From: a virus
Virus record (IMG/VR): IMGVR_UViG_3300029791_000002
Coordinates: 1-64,000 of that record
Strand: one strand, 5' to 3'
Length of the DNA: 64,000 nt
Shown here: positions 353 to 7,938 of the stretch, in pieces
Layout: each line of letters begins with the position of its first letter
How positions within the stretch are numbered: the first letter of the stretch is position 1
The notes under the pieces: model-generated
Databases searched by the model: none
Told to the model about the DNA's origin: nothing
The model's input: only the letters and a program-made list of their open reading frames with translations
Made by a program: the position numbers and the translations under genes

Positions 353-2611
353 ATGGGTGTCAAATGTCAGATAGAAAAGAAGGAAAATAAAATAGAACGG
401 GTTGAGGCTCCTAACGGTGAGCCTTCCGTTCTTTACGAAAGTGCCTTAAAATTATTAGGAAATAGCGAACGAGCTCTTCAGGTATGGGCTAAGGCTTACA
501 CTCCTGGTTTTTTGTCGTATTACGGTCATTGGAACAACCCGGCTCCAGGGGAGATGTTTAATACCGATCCCAATGGCGAACCTCTTTTAGAAGACGTGCT
601 GTCGTATATGAAGCGTCAGACTTATTTTGCTGATCCTTTAACGGCTCAGGACATTAAGGATGTAAGGGATTTCCTTTTGTCTACTCATTATTTTTTCAAT
701 GCGTCTTCATTGTCTAATGCTATCCTCTTCGATTTTTATGTAGATGGCAGTTTGATACTGAATGAGCAGAAATTAAGGAGATCCGGTTTGTATGATGAAA
801 CAGAGATAAGTCGTATTTTATCCGATCCTTCTGTTTTAAACGAGGTTTTGACTTCCATGAGAAAGTTAATAGATTCTTCTATTAACGAACATGATAGGGA
901 AAAAGATAATTATTTTATGTCTATTGACTATCAGTATGGTCCTATTGTTTACAAGGAGGGAGTGTTTAACCAATTTGGTAAAAAGGTACCATATAATCCT
1001 TCTGAGCTTTATTATGCTATGCGTAAAACAGTAGCCGGCATAAAAAACTTTTCTGAATTTTCATCTGCTTTTGAATCGTTGAGAAATTCCTATCCTGAAC
1101 TGGTTGAGAAATTCGTTTCTGATAAAGAATTTGCCGAATCTATGTTTGATGAGTTCTCATCTACGAATAAGATTCCGGTAATAAACATAGAAGGGGATGA
1201 TGTGGTAGAAGGCAAGAGAAGATCCTTGTCTAAGTTACAAGATCTGTCTTATTACAATCCTGGCAAAATAGAGTTCCTAAGAGCTCGTATATCAGCTTAT
1301 TTACATAGGGCTAATGCCGACACCGAATCCGATTTAAGAAGCATGATATGGGATATAGAAGAGGCTTGTACGTGGTTTGGCATAGATATAATAGGGACAT
1401 CGGAAACTTATGATGGCACAGAAGAATCTTTGAATAAGATAGATAATTTGATGCTGGATCTTGATATTTATGTGGCCAGGCATAATGATGTAAATTATGC
1501 TCCAACGCTGGCATCTTCTATAGATGATGTTCTTGGTGATAGCACAGATTATTATTCTGAATTATTGCCGGAGTATATGGATAATTTGAATATCGTTTAT
1601 TCTGAATCCAATATAGACCCAGTAGAAGCGTTTGAGAAACATTCATTGCTTAAGGTAGGAGATAATCTATATCAAAGGATCAGCAAAGATGATATTAACG
1701 AGATGTATCAAATATCAACAGTGTTAGCCAAGGACAACCTAACTCATTTTTCTACTAAAATATATCCTGAATCTTGTTTTAAGAACGGCGTTTTGGATAA
1801 AGAGAAAGTACGGAACGTAGATAATAATACGCTCATGGCTTCCATTAAAAAACACGTCAGATCGTTCATGGATTCTCAGAACACGGAGGACATGATAATG
1901 ACCAGGATGGCGTTTGGACACCCGGCGGTACTTGACGTTCCTTACGTGGATGTGGATCGGGAGTATAGTCGATACATGAACAAAAAACAAGATAGCGAAA
2001 ACCCATTATCCTTATTCGATTTATACCAATCTTACCTTGACAACAAACTCCATAAAACAAAATTATATGATAATGCCTATAAGTATCTTGACTTCAAACC
2101 TGGTCCATCTTTGGGCCTTATTTCTGATGATCCTGATATTTTGAAATCAATAGAATTATCTTTATCTGGAAAAGACAGGTTGATGTTGTTTGATTATAGC
2201 ATGACCAGTACCGACCCTTCTTTATCAGAATTGTTTTATTTGGAGAGGTATGACCCTTCGTATGCTGGGAATGATTTTGAACACTATTTTTACACCAGGC
2301 ACCCGTATCTGTTAAAAGAAAAATCGGGCCCTAATATCGTAGAGCAAGATGGTGTTATAACAGCAGAAGGTATTTATGATAATTTTATAAGAGTAGGTAA
2401 TAAGATATGGTCTAAAGTAAGCGAGAGTAGTTCCGGCTCTATCTACCAAAATCTGACAGGAACCGAATCGGAGGTGAAATACGATTCTACTCAGAAGGCT
2501 AAGACGGTAGAAACTGATTACGCTCCATACCAAAACAGATCTGGCTTGACGCAAGATATGACCGTAAGCAAGTCTGAATTGGATGATCTTAACAAATTGG
2601 AATGCAGGTAA
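353..2611 (+). CDS. hypothetical 752-aa protein (possible virion/structural protein)
   Basis: Long uninterrupted ORF followed by a hairpin terminator at 2655-2685; no catalytic motifs recognised. Confidence 0.65.
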   Translation: MGVKCQIEKKENKIERVEAPNGEPSVLYESALKLLGNSERALQVWAKAYTPGFLSYYGHWNNPAPGEMFNTDPNGEPLLEDVLSYMKRQTYFADPLTAQDIKDVRDFLLSTHYFFNASSLSNAILFDFYVDGSLILNEQKLRRSGLYDETEISRILSDPSVLNEVLTSMRKLIDSSINEHDREKDNYFMSIDYQYGPIVYKEGVFNQFGKKVPYNPSELYYAMRKTVAGIKNFSEFSSAFESLRNSYPELVEKFVSDKEFAESMFDEFSSTNKIPVINIEGDDVVEGKRRSLSKLQDLSYYNPGKIEFLRARISAYLHRANADTESDLRSMIWDIEEACTWFGIDIIGTSETYDGTEESLNKIDNLMLDLDIYVARHNDVNYAPTLASSIDDVLGDSTDYYSELLPEYMDNLNIVYSESNIDPVEAFEKHSLLKVGDNLYQRISKDDINEMYQISTVLAKDNLTHFSTKIYPESCFKNGVLDKEKVRNVDNNTLMASIKKHVRSFMDSQNTEDMIMTRMAFGHPAVLDVPYVDVDREYSRYMNKKQDSENPLSLFDLYQSYLDNKLHKTKLYDNAYKYLDFKPGPSLGLISDDPDILKSIELSLSGKDRLMLFDYSMTSTDPSLSELFYLERYDPSYAGNDFEHYFYTRHPYLLKEKSGPNIVEQDGVITAEGIYDNFIRVGNKIWSKVSESSSGSIYQNLTGTESEVKYDSTQKAKTVETDYAPYQNRSGLTQDMTVSKSELDDLNKLECR

Positions 2612-2654
2612 TTTTTGTATATACACATAGTTTTTTCATAGTTATAATTTGGGA

Positions 2655-2685
2655 AGTGAGGCTTGTGAAAGTCTCACTTTTCTTA
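2655..2685 (+). terminator. intrinsic terminator (AGTGAG-12 nt loop-CTCACT + T-run)
   Basis: 6-bp perfect stem 2655-2660/2673-2678 followed by TTTTCTTATATAT. Confidence 0.5.
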
Positions 2686-3117
2686 TATATGCACGTATAT
2701 CAATAACATACAAGAAAAGTTAGATTTTCATTGTTTATGAATTATTTTTGTTAAGTTTGCAATATTAGTTTCAGGAAGGGATTATGGAAATAAGGAAAAA
2801 GTAAGAACCGAACGTAACTAATAACAGTAGGAAATGAGAATCAGTACCATCAAACGTAACAACAGCATTCATCTTATGTATAAAAACATTATGAATGATT
2901 TAGGTCAATTAAGAACTGTAGTTTCAAAATCCTATATTTATAATCTGATACAAAATCAAACCGGATTAAGTATCAGAACTATATCCCATGTACTTAACCA
3001 TACCAAAGAACAGGATACGGATTCTTTGTGAAAAGCATGTATTTTCATACATTTGTTCGTTCTTTAGTTTTAGTAGGGAAAAGTTTTTCATGGTATTTTA
3101 GTTTAGATTAGTTGAGG

Positions 3118-3150
3118 CAGGATTCGCAGTGATGCGGATCCTGTTTTGAT
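3118..3150 (+). terminator. intrinsic terminator-like hairpin
   Basis: CAGGATTCGC...GCGGATCCTG 10-bp stem (one G:U) followed by TTTTGATTT. Confidence 0.4.
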
Positions 3151-3200
3151 TTACAGCGCTTTACCCAAAAAAGGAAAAGCGAAAGTTGCTGATTATCAAT

Positions 3201-3222
3201 TTTTCCCCATAAATGGGGAAAA
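3201..3222. promoter_or_regulatory. perfect 9-bp inverted repeat TTTTCCCCA-TAAA-TGGGGAAAA upstream of the Gly-rich gene
   Basis: Exact dyad symmetry read directly; no flanking T-run, so operator-like rather than terminator. Confidence 0.35.
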
Positions 3223-3291
3223 CTACTCGTTGTATATTATATTTCCGTTTTTACTGAAAATCCTTCCATTTTATCGGAAACAAACTCAGCC

Positions 3292-4374
3292 TTGTTCCAC
3301 CCTGCAATCATGATCTTTGTTACGTGCTTCATGCACGTATGTTTAACAATTAAATACTATAAAATTATGGGTGGTGATAAAATCGTCCTTTTAGATGGAG
3401 CCGGGGCTAACGGTGGTGGTGCAGCCACTAACGGTCTTCTTTCAATGATTCCCGGCATGTTTGCTAATTTGATAGGTGGTAATAAAATGGATCCGAATCT
3501 GGTGGCGGCTTTGATGAACGGTCGTAACAACCAGGACGGTTTCGGTGGGGCTAACGGTTGGTGGCTCTGGATAATTGTTTTGTTCTGGCTGTGGGGTGGA
3601 CGCGGCTTCGGTAACGGTTTTGGAAATGGCGGTGATTGTTGCGCCAATGGTTTGCCGGCTCAGTTGAATAACGATTACGGTCGTGAACTTTTGATGCAGG
3701 CAATTCAAGGTAATCGTAGCGCCATAGATCAGATTGCTTCTGCTTTGAACTGTTCTACTACTCAACTTCAGAACGCTATCTGCAACGTACAGGGTGCTAT
3801 TGATAAAGTAGCTGGTCAGGTAGGTATGACTTCTCAGGCTGTTATCAACGCAGTTCAACAACAAGGTTGTGAAATAGGAAATCAAATCAGCTCTTGCTGC
3901 TGCAATCTGAGTTCGTTGATCAATCAAAGCACTTGCCAGACTCAGGGAATGATTACTCAGCAAGGTTTTGATAACCAGCTTCGCACGTTGGAACAAACCA
4001 ATATCTTGCAGAATGGTCTCAACCAAGGTCTGGCTAACAATCGTGAGCAAGCTACAAGCCAATTCAATATCTTGTCTGCGAAACTTGACGCCCAAACCGT
4101 TATGATCAACGACAAATTCTGTCAGTTGGAAATGAGGGAGATGCAGAACACTATTGCTCAACTTCGTGAAGAAAAAGCGGCTTTGACAGCTTCGGCATTA
4201 TCTCAGCAACAAACCCAGAATATCGTTGGTCAATTACGCCCGACGGCCGTCCCGGCCTACCCCTCTTGTTCTCCTTACCAGGCTTATACTTGGGGACAGG
4301 TATTCGGAGGAGGTTGCTGTAATAACGGATGCGGATGTAACAACGGATGTTGCAATAACAACGCTGCTGTCTGA
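3292..4374 (+). CDS. Gly/Asn/Gln/Cys-rich membrane-associated protein of unknown function (probable true start ATG 3367)
   Basis: GGxGNG-type glycine tracts, one Trp-rich TM segment (WWLWIIVLFWLWGG), Q/N-rich coiled-coil-like middle, C-terminal CCNNGCGCNNGCCNNN cysteine repeat. Confidence 0.55.
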   Translation: MFHPAIMIFVTCFMHVCLTIKYYKIMGGDKIVLLDGAGANGGGAATNGLLSMIPGMFANLIGGNKMDPNLVAALMNGRNNQDGFGGANGWWLWIIVLFWLWGGRGFGNGFGNGGDCCANGLPAQLNNDYGRELLMQAIQGNRSAIDQIASALNCSTTQLQNAICNVQGAIDKVAGQVGMTSQAVINAVQQQGCEIGNQISSCCCNLSSLINQSTCQTQGMITQQGFDNQLRTLEQTNILQNGLNQGLANNREQATSQFNILSAKLDAQTVMINDKFCQLEMREMQNTIAQLREEKAALTASALSQQQTQNIVGQLRPTAVPAYPSCSPYQAYTWGQVFGGGCCNNGCGCNNGCCNNNAAV

Positions 4375-4397
4375 TTTTATTAAGAAAGGAGGCTAAT

Positions 4398-4811
4398 ATG
4401 GCTTGTGTTTCTAAAATAGGATCGTTGTATGAGATGGTTACGAAGAATGTTATTGTCAGTACGACAAATACAGTCTTCGGTATTAACCCACGGGCTTGGA
4501 TCGCCCTTCCGTGTGAGGGTCTTATCCTTCTTAAGATAAGGCAAGTAGTCCCCACAGTCGGAAGTGCTCTACCGGTACAGATTGCGGTCCCGGCAAACAG
4601 CACAGTTTCAACAGTAGGAGCCGACACCTGTTGCCCGGTTACGGGAGTGAATGTCGTGAACCCTATTAACGTAGCTGTCACGGGTGCTGCTATGGTAAAT
4701 GGCACAGAACGCCTTCTGTACTTCAATAAAGTTCGTGGCGTGTTAAGATTAATGGATTGTTGTGTTCCAACAACAACAGCCCAGGCGTCTGAAGTTAAAG
4801 CAGGTAAATGA
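4398..4811 (+). CDS. hypothetical protein (137 aa)
   Basis: ORF preceded by a canonical AAGGAGG 7 nt upstream (4385-4391), unusual for this genome. Confidence 0.6.
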   Translation: MACVSKIGSLYEMVTKNVIVSTTNTVFGINPRAWIALPCEGLILLKIRQVVPTVGSALPVQIAVPANSTVSTVGADTCCPVTGVNVVNPINVAVTGAAMVNGTERLLYFNKVRGVLRLMDCCVPTTTAQASEVKAGK

Positions 4812-4861
4812 TTTCAGTAGGGTGATGGAGATCATCACCCTATTTTCACCTAACTAATATT

Positions 4862-5356
4862 TTGATCATGTTTTCAGATTTGAAGAAAGGGTTTCAGGTA
4901 CATACCCTTGATACTAATACAGTACCTAAATACGAATTGGGAAAGGTAGTAGCCGTATCCGAACCCAGGTATCTTCCTCCTCAGCCAGGTCAGTATCAGG
5001 CGATGCAGACCCGCGTGGTGGATCTGACGGTAGAGCTCACTGGCGAAACCAAGACCTACACGGTTCCGGAATCCCAGAATGTGGCTAAGGCTATGGGCAT
5101 AACATTATCTACCAGCATAGATCCGATTATGAACGAACTGAATGCCATAAAAAGCACCAGTCAGGAAATAATAGACAGCGTAGATGCCCATCGTGCCAAG
5201 ATAGAGGCTTGTGAATCTATATTAGAAGACATCAATCCGGCATTCAAACAAACGAGAGAGCAGGATCGTAAAATAGCTGGTATAGAAAATAAGGTGAATG
5301 ACCTTACTGATTCATTCGAAGATTTAAAGAAGTTAATTGTAGAACGTTTGAAATAA
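4862..5356 (+). CDS. hypothetical protein (164 aa, C-terminal coiled coil)
   Basis: ORF tiling in the + operon. Confidence 0.55.
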   Translation: MIMFSDLKKGFQVHTLDTNTVPKYELGKVVAVSEPRYLPPQPGQYQAMQTRVVDLTVELTGETKTYTVPESQNVAKAMGITLSTSIDPIMNELNAIKSTSQEIIDSVDAHRAKIEACESILEDINPAFKQTREQDRKIAGIENKVNDLTDSFEDLKKLIVERLK

Positions 5357-5363
5357 GTATAAT

Positions 5364-5732
5364 ATGATAGTATATGATTTAAATTCAGGACACAGAGAAT
5401 ATCCTGGATATGACGAGATAGAAGACAGACGAGGTGGAGGCAGAGGCAGAAGCCGCCGTTCTGATGGGACGTACATGGGGTACGGTGGTGGTATTTACGA
5501 CCATTACGGTATGCATGAGAAGATGAAGGAAATGGAAGAACGCGAAAACGAGCTGGAAGAAAGGGAAAGAAGGCTCGAAGAGCGCGAACGTCGTCATGAA
5601 ATGGAGGACCGGGAATACCGGAGGATGGGTTACGAATCCTACCCGATAGATTACTATGGAGACGACAGATACTACGGTGACGGGCCTCAGATGCGCAGAG
5701 GTCGCGGACGTGGCAGAGGTCGTTCTTATTGA
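5364..5732 (+). CDS. low-complexity RGG/Tyr- and Glu-Arg-rich protein (122 aa)
   Basis: RGGGRGRSRR and RRGRGRGRGRSY tracts flank an (E/R)-repeat helix ERENELEERERRLEERERRHE; many Tyr/Gly. Confidence 0.5.
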   Translation: MIVYDLNSGHREYPGYDEIEDRRGGGRGRSRRSDGTYMGYGGGIYDHYGMHEKMKEMEERENELEERERRLEERERRHEMEDREYRRMGYESYPIDYYGDDRYYGDGPQMRRGRGRGRGRSY

Positions 5733-5825
5733 GGAGCAGACGCAGAGGATCCAGCTTATCAGAAATATGTAGATACTTACGGCTACCATTTTTCTAATGC
5801 TCTCGCTGATGAGGCGGTAAAGAAG

Positions 5826-6119
5826 ATGGTCAACGTCGATGGATCCAAGAGGATCTGGAAGCAGCCGAAAATAAAAGATATTTTTGAAAAGTGCGGAGCG
5901 AAGAAGCCGGATAAAGCGACATGGGGCGATGTCCAATATGTCTTTGCAATGTACTATTCGGATGGTTTTCCGAAGGTCTTCAAATGTGAGAACGAGTTGG
6001 TGAAAGCTACGTTAATGTATTTGGATGATCCGGATGCTCCCGAAGGAGTAGCCTTTATAAGATGGCTTGCCGTGCAAGATTACCTCGGCGAAAAAATAAA
6101 CTGGAAGGATCTGACCTGA
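5826..6119 (+). CDS. hypothetical protein (97 aa)
   Basis: ORF in + operon. Confidence 0.45.
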   Translation: MVNVDGSKRIWKQPKIKDIFEKCGAKKPDKATWGDVQYVFAMYYSDGFPKVFKCENELVKATLMYLDDPDAPEGVAFIRWLAVQDYLGEKINWKDLT

Positions 6120-7479: not shown

Positions 7480-7580
7480 GAGATCAATGATTCTTTTATT
7501 CATATATGTATTCTTTAATAATTGATTCTGATATATGCCAAAAAGTTATTATTATATTTGTATTATAAATGTGGTTAAAA

Positions 7581-7938
7581 ATGATTTCATACAAATACAA
7601 CATCTATCATTCAAAGAAAACGAAGTATCTTGATAAGATGCTTCGCGAATGCTGTTTTGTATGGAATCATGCTTTAGCTCTACAACGTAGATATTACAAA
7701 CTGTTTGGGAAATACATCTAACGCTACCAAGATCCTCGTCAAGACCTTTAGAGGCAAGTTGTTCAAGAAAGCTTTTGGAAGAGCTCGTAGAGGAAAGGAT
7801 ATTAGTTCTTTTGAAAGACAGGAAAAAGAAAGTGGTTTCAATTTTCTACACAATCATAATAATGGTCGTATGCGAAGCGGTCATATTGTAATAAACGGAA
7901 TTGGTATGTTTAAACAAATAATGAAGTCGGGTACGTGA
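7581..7938 (+). pseudogene. tnpB: frameshifted remnant of a TnpB (IS200/IS605 OrfB) N-terminal region
   Basis: 46-aa ORF 7581-7721 MISYKYNIYHSKKTKYLDKMLRECCFVWNHALALQRRYYKLFGKYI matches the canonical TnpB N-terminus (YKYRIYP...G..RFVWNH.L). It continues in another frame (7705-7938) with TnpB-like segments (KLFKKAFGRARRGK, NGIGMFK ~ LPKLGWVK). No RuvC motifs follow. Confidence 0.55.

What the first reader, a model, noticed from the sequence alone, without database searches (positions are those of the whole stretch)
3292..4374. Gly/Asn/Gln/Cys-rich protein with Trp-rich TM segment and terminal CCNNGCGCNNGCCNNN motif
The composition is highly unusual: GGxGNG glycine loops, a single WWLWIIVLFWLWGG membrane segment, a Q/N-rich helical core, and paired/triple cysteines (SSCCCNL, GGGCCNNGCGCNNGCC). 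It resembles glycine-rich bacteriocin or cell-envelope-acting proteins and metal/disulfide-rich fibres more than typical phage structural proteins. It may be an envelope-targeting or lysis/entry factor.
Basis: seen in the sequence. Interest (0 to 1): 0.55.

Follow-up and report, generated by a model that had tools for sequence, protein, structure and literature searches.

The report
Unknown membrane-anchored cysteine-rich phage stalk protein
This is a real, very oddly composed gene of a gut crAss-like phage that most likely makes a membrane-inserted helical stalk protein of unknown function; it belongs to a large uncharacterised family that leads a travelling gene cassette in Bacteroides phages and also occurs in viruses of gut methanogens.

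Summary
The gene most likely starts at ATG 3367, giving 335 aa, not at TTG 3292. Among 63 ORFs in the window the protein ranks first for Gly, Asn and Gln. It has 17 Cys and almost no charged residues.

It carries a 13-residue Trp-rich hydrophobic segment between Gly-rich flanks. After that come helical repeats and a predicted 133-residue helix, then a Pro/Gly/Cys tail.

The window is a csAssE-Sib-like crAss phage. The protein matches phrog_16490 (function unknown; E 2.5e-43), with about 3,300 homologues. An invariant CCC triplet is the family hallmark.

The GenBank labels "spike glycoprotein" and "viral fiber" appear to rest on weak coiled-coil matches. I found no homology to fibres, collagen, bacteriocins, holins or spanins.

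The gene leads a conserved accessory cassette: X, Y, Z, a charged small protein, DUF7841 and sometimes a Zn-peptidase-like gene. crAss001 lacks the whole cassette. It often, but not always, lies beside holin and endolysin genes. In recoded crAss phages it carries in-frame TAG codons, as the neighbouring late genes do.

Best guess, at 0.38: a late membrane- or envelope-acting accessory protein. The function itself is unproven.

The parts
3367..4374 (+). CDS of protein X (335 aa plus TGA stop), a member of phrog_16490
   Evidence: ORF. The start is fixed by homologue N-termini. phrog_16490 E 2.5e-43. 3,285 homologues and 935 clusters at 50% identity.
3367..3555 (+). N-terminal region (aa 1-63): Gly-rich, nearly uncharged, with a conserved G-x-DPNL-x-A-x-MN helix motif
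   Evidence: Alignments. AF2 predicts short helices at 28-32 and 43-50.
3556..3594 (+). Trp-rich hydrophobic segment GWWLWIIVLFWLW (aa 64-76) between Gly-rich flanks; the putative short membrane helix
   Evidence: Hydropathy. A hydrophobic core averaging 13.3 residues was located in 46 of 47 homologues, with no K/R bias on either side. AF2 predicts a helix at 65-76.
3673..3819 (+). Two conserved helices (aa 103-151) with the LLMQAIQGNxxAIxQLAxxLNC motif and strong heptad periodicity
   Evidence: AF2 helices at 103-127 and 131-151. 3.5-residue periodicity z up to 5.5. Near-invariant A112, I113, G115, N116, A119, I120. This stretch gives the weak coronavirus S2 HR1 hit (E 0.008).
3838..4236 (+). 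Predicted single long helix (aa 158-290, about 20 nm if straight)
   Evidence: AF2 with a 47-sequence alignment; block-mean pLDDT about 81-94 for aa 201-290.
3895..3903 (+). CCC triplet (aa 177-179), the family hallmark
   Evidence: C179 invariant; C177 in 44 of 47 and C178 in 45 of 47. Also present in the archaeal-virus homologue.
4105..4149 (+). Conserved motif INDKFCQLEMREMQN (aa 247-261) in the long helix
   Evidence: Invariant in the 8-sequence alignment A2. It served as the search pattern that recovered 23 genome loci.
4237..4371 (+). Pro-rich linker (RPTAVPAYPSCSPY) and low-complexity Gly/Asn/Cys tail ending GGGCCNNGCGCNNGCCNNNAAV
   Evidence: Sequence. AF2 predicts disorder. Homologue tails are mostly Gly/Tyr/Phe-rich and commonly end either in GCGC-type or in G-x-W-[GNS]-type sequences; a minority have other endings.
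4398..4811 (+). Cassette gene Y (137 aa, no family match), preceded by an AAGGAGG Shine-Dalgarno-like sequence
   Evidence: Family 1 follows X in most of the 92 loci held, with 86 ORFs clustered. No Pfam, PHROG or PDB hit.
4868..5356 (+). Cassette gene Z (162 aa, phrog_28898): an N-terminal half and a helical C-terminal half with a conserved Cys
   Evidence: phrog_28898 E 3.5e-19. Family 4 has 78 ORFs across the loci. The ATG 4868 start is fixed by the MF-x-x-L N-terminus. Weak coiled-coil hits to paramyxovirus F HR2 (E 5e-4) and syntaxin.
5364..5732 (+). Cassette gene for a small, highly charged RGG/Asp/Glu/Tyr-rich protein (122 aa)
   Evidence: It occupies the same position as families 7, 18 and 66 (77-97 aa, R/D/E/Y-rich) in other loci. 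The correspondence rests on position and composition, not on detected homology.
5733..6119 (+). Cassette gene DUF7841 (PF25223, phrog_38431); homology begins at 5754, upstream of the only in-frame ATG (5826)
   Evidence: HMM E 2.6e-39 for the stop-to-stop ORF against 7e-5 for the 97-aa form. Pfam DUF7841 match for family members.
2834..3031 (+). Small upstream gene, labelled 'lactose operon repressor' in the csAssE-Sib record; a possible cassette regulator
   Evidence: Annotated in OR575929. In C3_41-like phages and the Parabacteroides element, a DnaA-C-type HTH gene sits at this position instead. Any regulatory role is inference.

Best explanation
X is a late-expressed phage protein that most likely inserts into the host cytoplasmic membrane. 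Insertion would be through its short Trp-rich hydrophobic helix, and the protein would oligomerise into a helical stalk projecting about 20 nm.

Its parts:
- A heptad-repeat helical region (aa 103-151).
- A long helix (aa 158-290).
- An invariant CCC knot that staples the oligomer, by disulfide or by metal.
- A sticky Gly/aromatic/Cys tail at the far end.

It is the first gene of a mobile accessory cassette: X, Y, Z, a charged disordered protein, DUF7841 and sometimes a Zn-peptidase-like gene. The most likely place of action is the cell envelope near the end of infection, helping or timing membrane and envelope disruption or particle release. It is probably not a virion spike.

Shown: the anatomy, family membership, cassette conservation, absence from crAss001, and in-frame TAG codons like those of neighbouring late genes.

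Inferred: membrane insertion, oligomerisation, topology (N-in, C-out) and the envelope or lysis role.
For: Anatomy:
- A hydrophobic core was located in 46 of 47 homologues.
- Helices and a 133-residue helix are predicted with block-mean pLDDT about 81-94.
- Heptad periodicity reaches z 5.5.
- The CCC triplet is invariant.

Late expression: X carries 7, 2 and 1 in-frame TAG codons in the TAG-recoded phages cr124_1, cr109_1 and cr273_1, as do neighbouring structural and lysis genes. In crAss-like phages recoding is reported mostly in late structural and lysis genes (PMC10136315; bioRxiv 10.1101/2021.08.26.457843).

Position near lysis genes:
- cr1_1: pholin, LysB-like gene, DUF7841, X, Y, Z, one gene, then the L,D-transpeptidase-like lysin.
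- cr109_1: holin, LysB-like gene, DUF7841, X.
- cr116_1: the holin and L,D-carboxypeptidase lie within 7 genes.
- cr273_1: the endolysin lies 6 genes downstream.
- Parabacteroides segnis element: holin (PF05105), M15 endolysin, a 134-aa gene, an HTH gene, then X.
- Archaeal virus vir215: X follows the tail-protein and reverse-transcriptase genes and precedes the integrase region.

Not a core virion part: crAss001, whose virion structure I recall being solved, lacks X, Y, Z, DUF7841 and fam3, while the LysB-like control HMM finds gp27. In the siphovirus C3_41T2LP the cassette lies outside the structural operons.

Breadth of hosts: the family occurs in viruses of Methanomassiliicoccales. This points to the membrane, which all these hosts share, rather than to a particular wall.
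Against: - There is no experimental datum of any kind.
- The hydrophobic core is only 11-15 residues and shows no positive-inside bias. It could instead be a buried or fusion-peptide-like segment.
- The cassette is about 11 kb from the M15 endolysin in C3_41T2LP. No lysis gene was detected near it in this window.
- crAss001 lacks the gene entirely yet is a cultured, plaque-forming phage, so X cannot be an essential lysis component.
- The loci showing adjacency to lysis genes are related to one another, so they are not independent observations.
- The long helix lacks clean heptad hydrophobicity on the Kyte-Doolittle scale.
Confidence: 0.38

Rival explanations
1. X is a virion-associated fibre or ejection (pilot) protein. 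It would be a disulfide-stapled coiled-coil rod carried on or in the particle, and its hydrophobic Gly-flanked peptide would insert into the host membrane at entry. This would resemble the P22 tail needle or T5 Pb2. Y and Z would be partner or adaptor proteins.
For: - It shows signs of late expression in recoded crAss phages.
- It lies between giant virion structural genes in this window (phrog_37651) and next to 'virion structural' and tail genes in cr109_1.
- The combination of a rod and a hydrophobic peptide recalls membrane-penetrating phage proteins (own knowledge).
- Conserved single Cys residues in X, Y and Z would suit extracellular disulfide links.
- GenBank annotators labelled it a fibre or spike.
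Against: - Those labels appear to rest on coiled-coil matches of E 0.008-0.3.
- The gene is absent from crAss001.
- In C3_41T2LP it lies outside the capsid and tail operons, at the end of the recombination-gene block.
- In the Parabacteroides element it comes after the lysis cassette and has its own HTH gene.
- No structural PHROG or Pfam family matches X or Y.
Confidence: 0.25
2. X is a membrane-level accessory (moron-like) protein. Candidate roles are superinfection exclusion, lysis-timing control or protection against host defences, rather than membrane disruption itself.
For: - The cassette is accessory and mobile: its genomic position varies, it has a dedicated small HTH gene upstream, and homing endonucleases are inserted within it.
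- In the temperate-looking elements it lies between the late genes and the lysogeny or early block.
Against: - In-frame TAG codons argue for late rather than early or lysogenic expression.
- A conserved cassette of five or six genes is large for an exclusion function.
- There is no significant match to known defence proteins. The only hit is a 16.5-bit coiled-coil match to the ZorA tail.
Confidence: 0.17
3. X is a cytoplasm-facing, membrane-tethered scaffold. Its cysteines would bind metal, and its low-complexity tail together with the neighbouring RGG/Tyr-rich protein would organise an assembly or condensate at the membrane.
For: - The CCC motif and the CxC/CC tail resemble metal-binding motifs. 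The hosts are strict anaerobes, in which periplasmic disulfide formation may be limited (own knowledge).
- The N/Q-rich, Gly/Tyr-rich tails and the adjacent RGG/Asp/Tyr-rich protein are compositions typical of phase-separating proteins (own knowledge).
- In C3_41T2LP the cassette follows the recombination genes.
Against: - This is purely compositional reasoning.
- Several homologues have no Cys in the C-terminal tail.
- In the archaeal homologue, three Arg precede the hydrophobic segment and one follows it, which weakly suggests that the large C-terminal domain lies outside the cell.
Confidence: 0.1
4. X is a secreted glycine-rich bacteriocin-like toxin.
Against: - It is 335 aa with an internal hydrophobic anchor and no leader peptide.
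- No exporter or immunity gene is present in the cassette.
- It is conserved as the first gene of a phage cassette across Crassvirales, a siphovirus and archaeal viruses.
Confidence: 0.03

Closest known systems
phrog_16490 (PHROGs v4, function unknown); labelled 'spike protein/glycoprotein' or 'outer capsid protein/viral fiber' in GenBank crAss-like phage records such as OR575929 WOZ57306.1 and MT774380 QOR58550.1
   Same: It is a true family member: E 2.5e-43 over nearly the full length and 99.7% identical to the csAssE-Sib protein.
   Different: Nothing differs in sequence terms. The GenBank names, however, are not backed by significant similarity.
Inner-membrane spanin subunits (lambda Rz, P2 LysB; crAss001 gp27 'lysis regulatory protein')
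   Same: A bitopic layout, a long helical extracytoplasmic part, conserved cysteines, frequent position in or beside lysis cassettes, and a length comparable to the periplasm.
   Different: - The hydrophobic segment comes after a 60-residue N-terminal region.
- No lipoprotein partner gene is embedded or adjacent.
- There is no profile similarity to the crAss LysB-like family (hhalign probability 0.9%).
- The gene co-exists with that family in cr1_1 and cr109_1.
- It also occurs in viruses of archaea.
Class III holin (T4 gp t type): one transmembrane helix with a large periplasmic domain containing cysteines
   Same: A single hydrophobic helix with a short N-terminal and a large C-terminal part, cysteines in the large domain, and late expression.
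   Different: - There is no sequence similarity to any Pfam or PHROG holin family.
- It is much larger and rod-like.
- Canonical holins are already present nearby in several genomes.
Class I viral fusion proteins (coronavirus S2 HR1; paramyxovirus F HR2) and SNAREs
   Same: - The order of elements: a Gly-flanked hydrophobic peptide followed directly by a heptad-repeat helix.
- X gives weak hits to S2 HR1 (E 0.008).
- The cassette partner Z gives weak hits to F HR2 (E 5e-4) and syntaxin (E 0.03).
   Different: - The matches cover only about 40-100-residue helical stretches and are at the level expected for coiled-coil composition.
- There is no fold match.
- There is no signal peptide, cleavage site or C-terminal anchor.
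- This is resemblance in layout, not homology.
P22 gp26 tail needle and T5 Pb2 (membrane-penetrating coiled-coil phage proteins)
   Same: A long helical rod combined with a hydrophobic, membrane-active element in a phage protein (own knowledge).
   Different: - No sequence similarity was detected.
- The gene is not in the tail modules of C3_41T2LP.
- It is absent from crAss001.

Membership tests
phrog_16490 | Significant full-length match to the family profile | tested here: met
   E 2.5e-43, residues 37-328 on profile positions 6-284 of 286. GenBank notes also assign the archaeal-virus homologues to phrog_16490.
Two-component spanin, inner-membrane subunit (Rz/LysB type) | N-terminal transmembrane helix followed by a periplasmic coiled-coil domain | tested here: inconclusive
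   A hydrophobic helix and long helices are present. However, the helix starts at residue 64, its core is only about 13 residues, and the topology is not predictable.
Two-component spanin, inner-membrane subunit (Rz/LysB type) | Partner outer-membrane lipoprotein gene (lipobox) embedded in, overlapping or adjacent to it | tested here: not met
   The + strand ORFs inside or after X (3968-4105, 4226-4396 and Y at 4398-4811) have no signal peptide or lipobox.
Two-component spanin, inner-membrane subunit (Rz/LysB type) | Sequence or profile similarity to a known or annotated spanin family | tested here: not met
   hhalign of the X profile against the crAss001 gp27 / cr1_1 LysB-like pair gave probability 0.9%. 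There were no Pfam or PHROG lysis hits.
Unimolecular spanin (T1 gp11 type) | N-terminal lipoprotein signal plus a C-terminal transmembrane helix | tested here: not met
   There is no N-terminal signal or lipobox. The only hydrophobic segment is at aa 64-76, and the C-terminus is a Gly/Asn/Cys tail.
Holins | Match to a holin family, or a small membrane protein placed directly beside the endolysin gene | tested here: not met
   There is no holin family hit. Separate holin genes are annotated or detected near X in cr1_1, cr109_1, cr116_1 and the Parabacteroides element. Hole-forming activity itself cannot be tested here.
Viral spike / class I fusion glycoprotein (GenBank label) | Significant sequence or fold similarity beyond a heptad-repeat stretch; signal peptide; C-terminal anchor | tested here: not met
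   The best PDB profile hit was E 0.008 over 40 residues of S2 HR1. Foldseek against the PDB gave nothing with E below 4. No signal peptide or C-terminal anchor is visible in the sequence.
   - No Pfam, PHROG or PDB fibre hit. Rotavirus VP4 scores E 0.33 over a helical stretch only.
- The Gly runs are GGxGNG-type, not Gly-X-Y.
- The gene lies outside the structural operons in C3_41T2LP and is absent from crAss001.
Tail fibre, collagen-like or 'outer capsid protein/viral fiber' | Physical presence in purified virions | not testable with these tools
   No proteomic data were found for any phage carrying the gene (paper searches).
Glycine-rich bacteriocins / class II microcins | Small secreted peptide with a leader, plus dedicated export and immunity genes | tested here: not met
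   It is 335 aa with no leader. The cassette neighbours are Y, Z, a charged protein and DUF7841, none of which is an exporter.
Known anti-phage defence proteins (PADLOC) | Significant match of X or its cassette partners to a defence-system model | tested here: not met
   Only weak hits of 13.5-16.5 bits were found, to ZorA, LmuB, DruC and AbiEii.

The most novel reading that the evidence does not exclude
X, possibly with Z, could be a new wall-independent membrane-rupturing or membrane-fusing egress or entry device shared by bacterial and archaeal gut viruses.

The layout would resemble a class I fusion protein or a SNARE. It would comprise a Gly-flanked aromatic hydrophobic peptide, an HR1-like helix in X, an HR2/syntaxin-like helix in Z, and a cysteine staple.

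Because it would act on the bare lipid bilayer, it would work both in Bacteroidota and in Methanomassiliicoccales, which I recall being described as lacking a cell wall.
Probability: 0.12. Interest if true: 0.8.

Novelty: new variant of a known kind. Interest (0 to 1): 0.45.

Why it matters
crAss-like phages are the most abundant viruses of the human gut, yet most of their genes have no known role.

This family is large: about 3,300 clusters at 90% identity and 935 at 50%. It has an absolutely conserved CCC motif. It leads a conserved cassette that moves between Crassvirales, an unrelated cultured Bacteroides siphovirus, a Parabacteroides genomic element and viruses of gut methanogens.

If it acts on membranes, it would be a cross-domain viral membrane effector and would add a component to phage lysis or entry in Bacteroidota, where these steps are poorly understood.

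The work also has a practical result. The GenBank names "spike glycoprotein" and "viral fiber" for these genes are unsupported and should not be propagated.

A cultured phage-host pair exists (C3_41T2LP on B. uniformis MB20-41), so the question is directly testable.

Tried and rejected
- **Single-sequence AF2 model:** useless, with mean pLDDT 44. The model built with an alignment is mostly one long helix, and Foldseek against the PDB found nothing.
- **Sequence and profile searches of X against the PDB:** these gave only coiled-coil-level hits. The same was true for Y, Z and fam3.
- **The search for related loci with the 47-sequence alignment:** failed because no stretch was conserved enough.
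- **The look-up of encoding contigs on P0159:** returned only a 1.4-kb contig.
- **Spanin paralogy:** rejected.
- **Defence-system and NCBIfam matches:** none of significance.
- **TGA recoding or read-through of the X stop:** read-through would add W-F-Y, which resembles the FW[GNS] tails of homologues. I rejected this because TGA ends 31 of 95 genes in the window, and 23 of 27 distinct X genes end in TAA with no such pattern.
- **Positive-inside rule for topology:** uninformative, with 1.09 against 1.04 K/R in the 25-residue flanks.
- **Lysis genes in the window:** HMMs for the DUF5675 lysin, the LysB-like family and fam3 found nothing.
- **Literature searches:** searches for the phage name, the PHROG, DUF7841, the C3_41T2LP host strain, the archaeal viruses and crAss spanins found no paper that treats this family.
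Full report
**1. What is there**

The real start is almost certainly ATG 3367, for three reasons:
- Close homologues begin MGG/MGTSGDKIVLL.
- The largest cluster is 335 aa with 1,072 member sequences.
- The first Met of the 335-aa form is an invariant column in a 47-sequence alignment.

The 25 extra residues are not conserved.

The 335-aa protein has G 13.1%, N 11.6%, Q 10.7% and C 5.1%, which is 17 Cys. Among 63 ORFs of at least 100 aa in the window it ranks first for G, N, Q and N+Q (z 3.2 to 5.6). It has the second-lowest charged-residue content, 10% against a mean of 29%. Five of its six Trp lie in aa 64-76. The terminal Cys cluster is far beyond chance (P about 9e-5). The CCC run would be only mildly unusual by chance (P about 0.035), but it is conserved.

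**2. Where the window comes from**

Window region 2600-6000 is 96.5% identical over 97% of its length to phage csAssE-Sib (OR575929, 151 kb, human gut). That record calls this gene "spike protein/glycoprotein". Weaker relatives are Crassvirales of the families Suoliviridae and Steigviridae.

**3. The family**

- There is no Pfam match. There is a strong match to phrog_16490, function unknown (E 2.5e-43).
- 3,285 clusters at 90% identity score E<=1e-3, as do 935 clusters at 50% identity.
- Conserved features:
  - an N-terminal G-x-DPNL motif;
  - a hydrophobic, aromatic core between Gly-rich flanks;
  - LLMQAIQGNxxAIxQLAxxLNC;
  - VINAIQ;
  - CCC, with C179 invariant and C177 and C178 in 44 and 45 of 47 sequences;
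  - INDKFCQLEMREMQNKI in many members;
  - a P-x-PAY or VPY Pro-rich linker;
  - a low-complexity Gly/Tyr/Phe/Asn/Cys tail that commonly ends either GCGC-like or G-x-W-[GNS]; a minority of sequences have other endings.
- The window's tail (GGGCCNNGCGCNNGCCNNNAAV) is an expanded example of the first tail type.
- Homologues with the same hallmarks occur in two kinds of viruses assigned to Methanomassiliicoccales: vir335 at 83 kb and vir215 at 38 kb. They show 27-29% identity and E 4e-6 to 4e-5, and form a clade of at least 120 listed clusters among 731 hits.

**4. Where the GenBank names come from**

A profile of the family against all PDB sequences gives these as its best hits:
- coronavirus S2 heptad repeat 1 (E 0.008 to 0.3, about 40 residues);
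- rotavirus VP4 (E 0.33).

Both matches cover helical stretches only. This most plausibly explains the "spike glycoprotein" and "outer capsid protein/viral fiber" labels, though I could not check how the annotators derived them. The matches are at coiled-coil composition level, not homology.

Foldseek of the model against the PDB found nothing.

**5. Anatomy**

AlphaFold2 with the 47-sequence alignment (mean pLDDT 60) predicts:
- short N-terminal helices;
- a helix at 65-76, which is the hydrophobic segment;
- helices at 103-127 and 131-151;
- one uninterrupted helix at 158-290, with block-mean pLDDT about 81-94 for aa 201-290;
- a disordered tail.

If straight, 133 residues is about 20 nm (inference).

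Hydrophobic 3.5-residue periodicity is strong for aa 106-168 (z up to 5.5). It is not strong for aa 200-290 on the Kyte-Doolittle scale. The first helices are therefore good coiled-coil candidates, while the long helix is rod-like but irregular.

The hydrophobic core averages only 13.3 residues across homologues. It has no K/R asymmetry, with 1.09 against 1.04 in the 25-residue flanks. Insertion is thus plausible but not canonical, and topology cannot be called from charge. In the archaeal homologue three Arg precede the segment and one follows it, which weakly favours N-in, C-out.

**6. Genomic context: a conserved accessory cassette**

I clustered the ORFs of the 92 loci held (the phage records plus 80 IMG/VR contigs retrieved with the C3_41T2LP homologue). 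This gives a recurrent order:
- X;
- Y (137-180 aa, no family match);
- Z (162-187 aa, phrog_28898);
- a small R/D/E/Y-rich charged protein (77-122 aa);
- DUF7841 (PF25223, phrog_38431);
- a protein of about 140 aa with invariant H-E-x-x-H and a downstream E, labelled "PolyVal metallopeptidase" in C3_41T2LP.

Family sizes are 86, 78, 81 and 79 ORFs for Y, Z, DUF7841 and the peptidase-like protein. These loci are biased towards relatives of one query, so they are not independent.

An HNH/I-HmuI-type homing endonuclease is inserted between X and Y in many loci. A small HTH gene often sits just upstream.

The window has X, Y, Z, the charged protein and DUF7841, but no peptidase-like gene.

**7. 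The cassette is accessory**

crAss001, whose virion structure I recall being solved by cryo-EM, has none of these genes. HMMs for X, Y, Z, DUF7841 and fam3 find nothing better than E 0.078 in the first 100 kb of its genome, in six-frame translation. The LysB-like control HMM finds gp27 at E 2.9e-12 (gene map). In cr116_1, from the same subfamily, the cassette is inserted between the equivalents of crAss001 gp30 and gp31.

**8. Relation to lysis genes**

| Genome | Arrangement |
|---|---|
| cr1_1 | pholin, LysB-like gene, DUF7841-like, X, Y, Z, one gene, then the L,D-transpeptidase-like (DUF5675) putative lysin |
| cr109_1 | holin, LysB-like gene, DUF7841-like, X, Y, Z, then virion structural genes |
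| cr273_1 | endolysin and terminase lie a few genes downstream |
| Parabacteroides segnis BX2 (147-kb contig) | tail protein, holin (PF05105), M15 endolysin (phrog_894), a 134-aa gene, a DnaA-C HTH gene, then X, Y, Z, DUF7841 and the peptidase-like gene |
| vir215 | X follows the tail-protein and reverse-transcriptase genes and precedes the integrase region |
| Siphovirus C3_41T2LP (cultured) | the M15 endolysin lies between the portal and tail genes, about 11 kb from the cassette, which ends the recombination-gene block |

In this window no lysis gene was detected nearby. The association with lysis genes is therefore frequent but not obligatory.

**9. Timing**

In three TAG-recoded Crassvirales, X carries 7, 2 and 1 in-frame TAG codons, like the adjacent terminase, tail and lysis genes. 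In crAss-like phages recoding is reported mostly for the late structural and lysis genes (PMC10136315; 10.1101/2021.08.26.457843). This argues for late expression.

**10. Tests against known families**

- **Two-component spanin:** there is no lipoprotein partner ORF and no profile similarity to the crAss LysB-like family (probability 0.9%). X also co-exists with that family.
- **Unimolecular spanin:** there is no lipobox and no C-terminal anchor.
- **Holin:** no family match, and separate holins lie nearby.
- **Bacteriocin:** the size is wrong, and there is no leader, exporter or immunity gene.
- **Defence systems:** only weak hits of 13.5-16.5 bits were found.
- **NCBIfam:** nothing.

**11. 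Interpretation**

The best-supported reading has three parts: a late, membrane-inserted, oligomeric helical stalk protein, stapled at the CCC layer, with a sticky low-complexity tip. It would head a mobile accessory cassette and most likely act at the cell envelope around lysis or release (confidence 0.38).

Three observations favour action on the membrane over a wall-specific or core-virion role:
- the family occurs in viruses of Methanomassiliicoccales;
- crAss001 lacks it;
- in a siphovirus it lies outside the structural operons.

The main rival is a virion-borne fibre or ejection protein (0.25). After that come a membrane-level accessory role such as exclusion or lysis timing (0.17), a cytoplasm-facing metal-binding scaffold (0.10) and a bacteriocin (0.03).

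One resemblance is intriguing but unproven. X has a Gly-flanked hydrophobic peptide followed by an HR1-like helix. Its partner Z gives weak HR2 and syntaxin-like hits (E 5e-4 and 0.03). This is the layout of membrane-fusion machines, though the scores are what coiled coils give by composition.

**12. Verdict**

The gene belongs to a catalogued but uncharacterised family. Its current database names are unsupported. Its function can be tested in an existing cultured phage-host pair.

Noticed in passing
window 5364-6119 (+); also L001 11767-12531: The RGG/acid/Tyr-rich 122-aa ORF and the DUF7841 ORF are in the same frame, separated by a single TGA at 5730-5732. DUF7841 homology starts at 5754, but the first in-frame ATG, GTG or TTG is at 5826. 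The arrangement is conserved in csAssE-Sib despite an upstream indel. Elsewhere the two are separate genes about 60 nt apart. This could be TGA read-through producing a fusion protein, or a non-canonical start.
   Followed up: partly
about 30 IMG/VR loci, e.g. L016, L045, L068 (between X and Y); L003 6009-6629 (upstream of X): An HNH/I-HmuI-type homing endonuclease gene (my family 6, about 210 aa) is inserted inside or next to the cassette in many phages, on either strand.
   Followed up: partly
window about 3032-3366, compared with L001 8709-9593: csAssE-Sib carries an extra 885-bp antirepressor (Bro-N type) gene between the small upstream gene and X, and the window lacks it. Several database 'homologues' of X with PF02498 are probably gene calls fused across this junction.
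   Followed up: no
window 7569-7721 (+): A 50-aa ORF matches the N-terminus of a transposase family (phrog_506, E 2.6e-6). It is possibly a remnant of an insertion element. One X homologue cluster (P0079) also carries transposase OrfB domains.
   Followed up: no
window 2651-2682 (+): A strong 14-bp-stem hairpin followed by a T-rich run lies just after the 752-aa gene (stop at 2611). It is probably a terminator marking the end of the preceding transcription unit.
   Followed up: no
L005 (cr109_1), L007 (cr124_1), L008 (cr273_1): X and most of its neighbours contain in-frame TAG codons, consistent with TAG-to-Gln recoding of late genes in these Crassvirales. Z of cr109_1 has 9 TAG against 7 CAA+CAG.
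   Followed up: yes
L092 (Vibrio olivae, 2.3-kb contig) and L107 (Thauera sp., 1.4-kb contig, coverage 1.09): Short contigs encoding X homologues (72% and 52% identity) sit in assemblies of unrelated Proteobacteria. These are most likely contamination from gut-phage DNA. Many MAG hits labelled Bacilli or Clostridia are contigs of about 99 kb or 140-172 kb and are probably mis-binned phages.
   Followed up: no
L094 (Parabacteroides segnis BX2 contig, 95978-112835) and L111 (P. leei): Genomes of cultured Parabacteroides carry the whole cassette next to a holin and M15 endolysin pair and a 1,176-aa tail-like protein. This suggests a prophage or a resident phage in isolates that could be used for experiments.
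   Followed up: partly
window 3442-4161 (-) and 4151-4726 (-): Long antisense ORFs of 239 and 191 aa overlap X and Y. They are most likely artefacts of the skewed codon composition. I did not search them for homologues.
   Followed up: no
window 4375-4397: Y is preceded by a strong Shine-Dalgarno-like AAGGAGG 8 nt before its ATG, whereas X has none. This is unusual for Bacteroidota-type genes, which I understand rarely use such sites.
   Followed up: no
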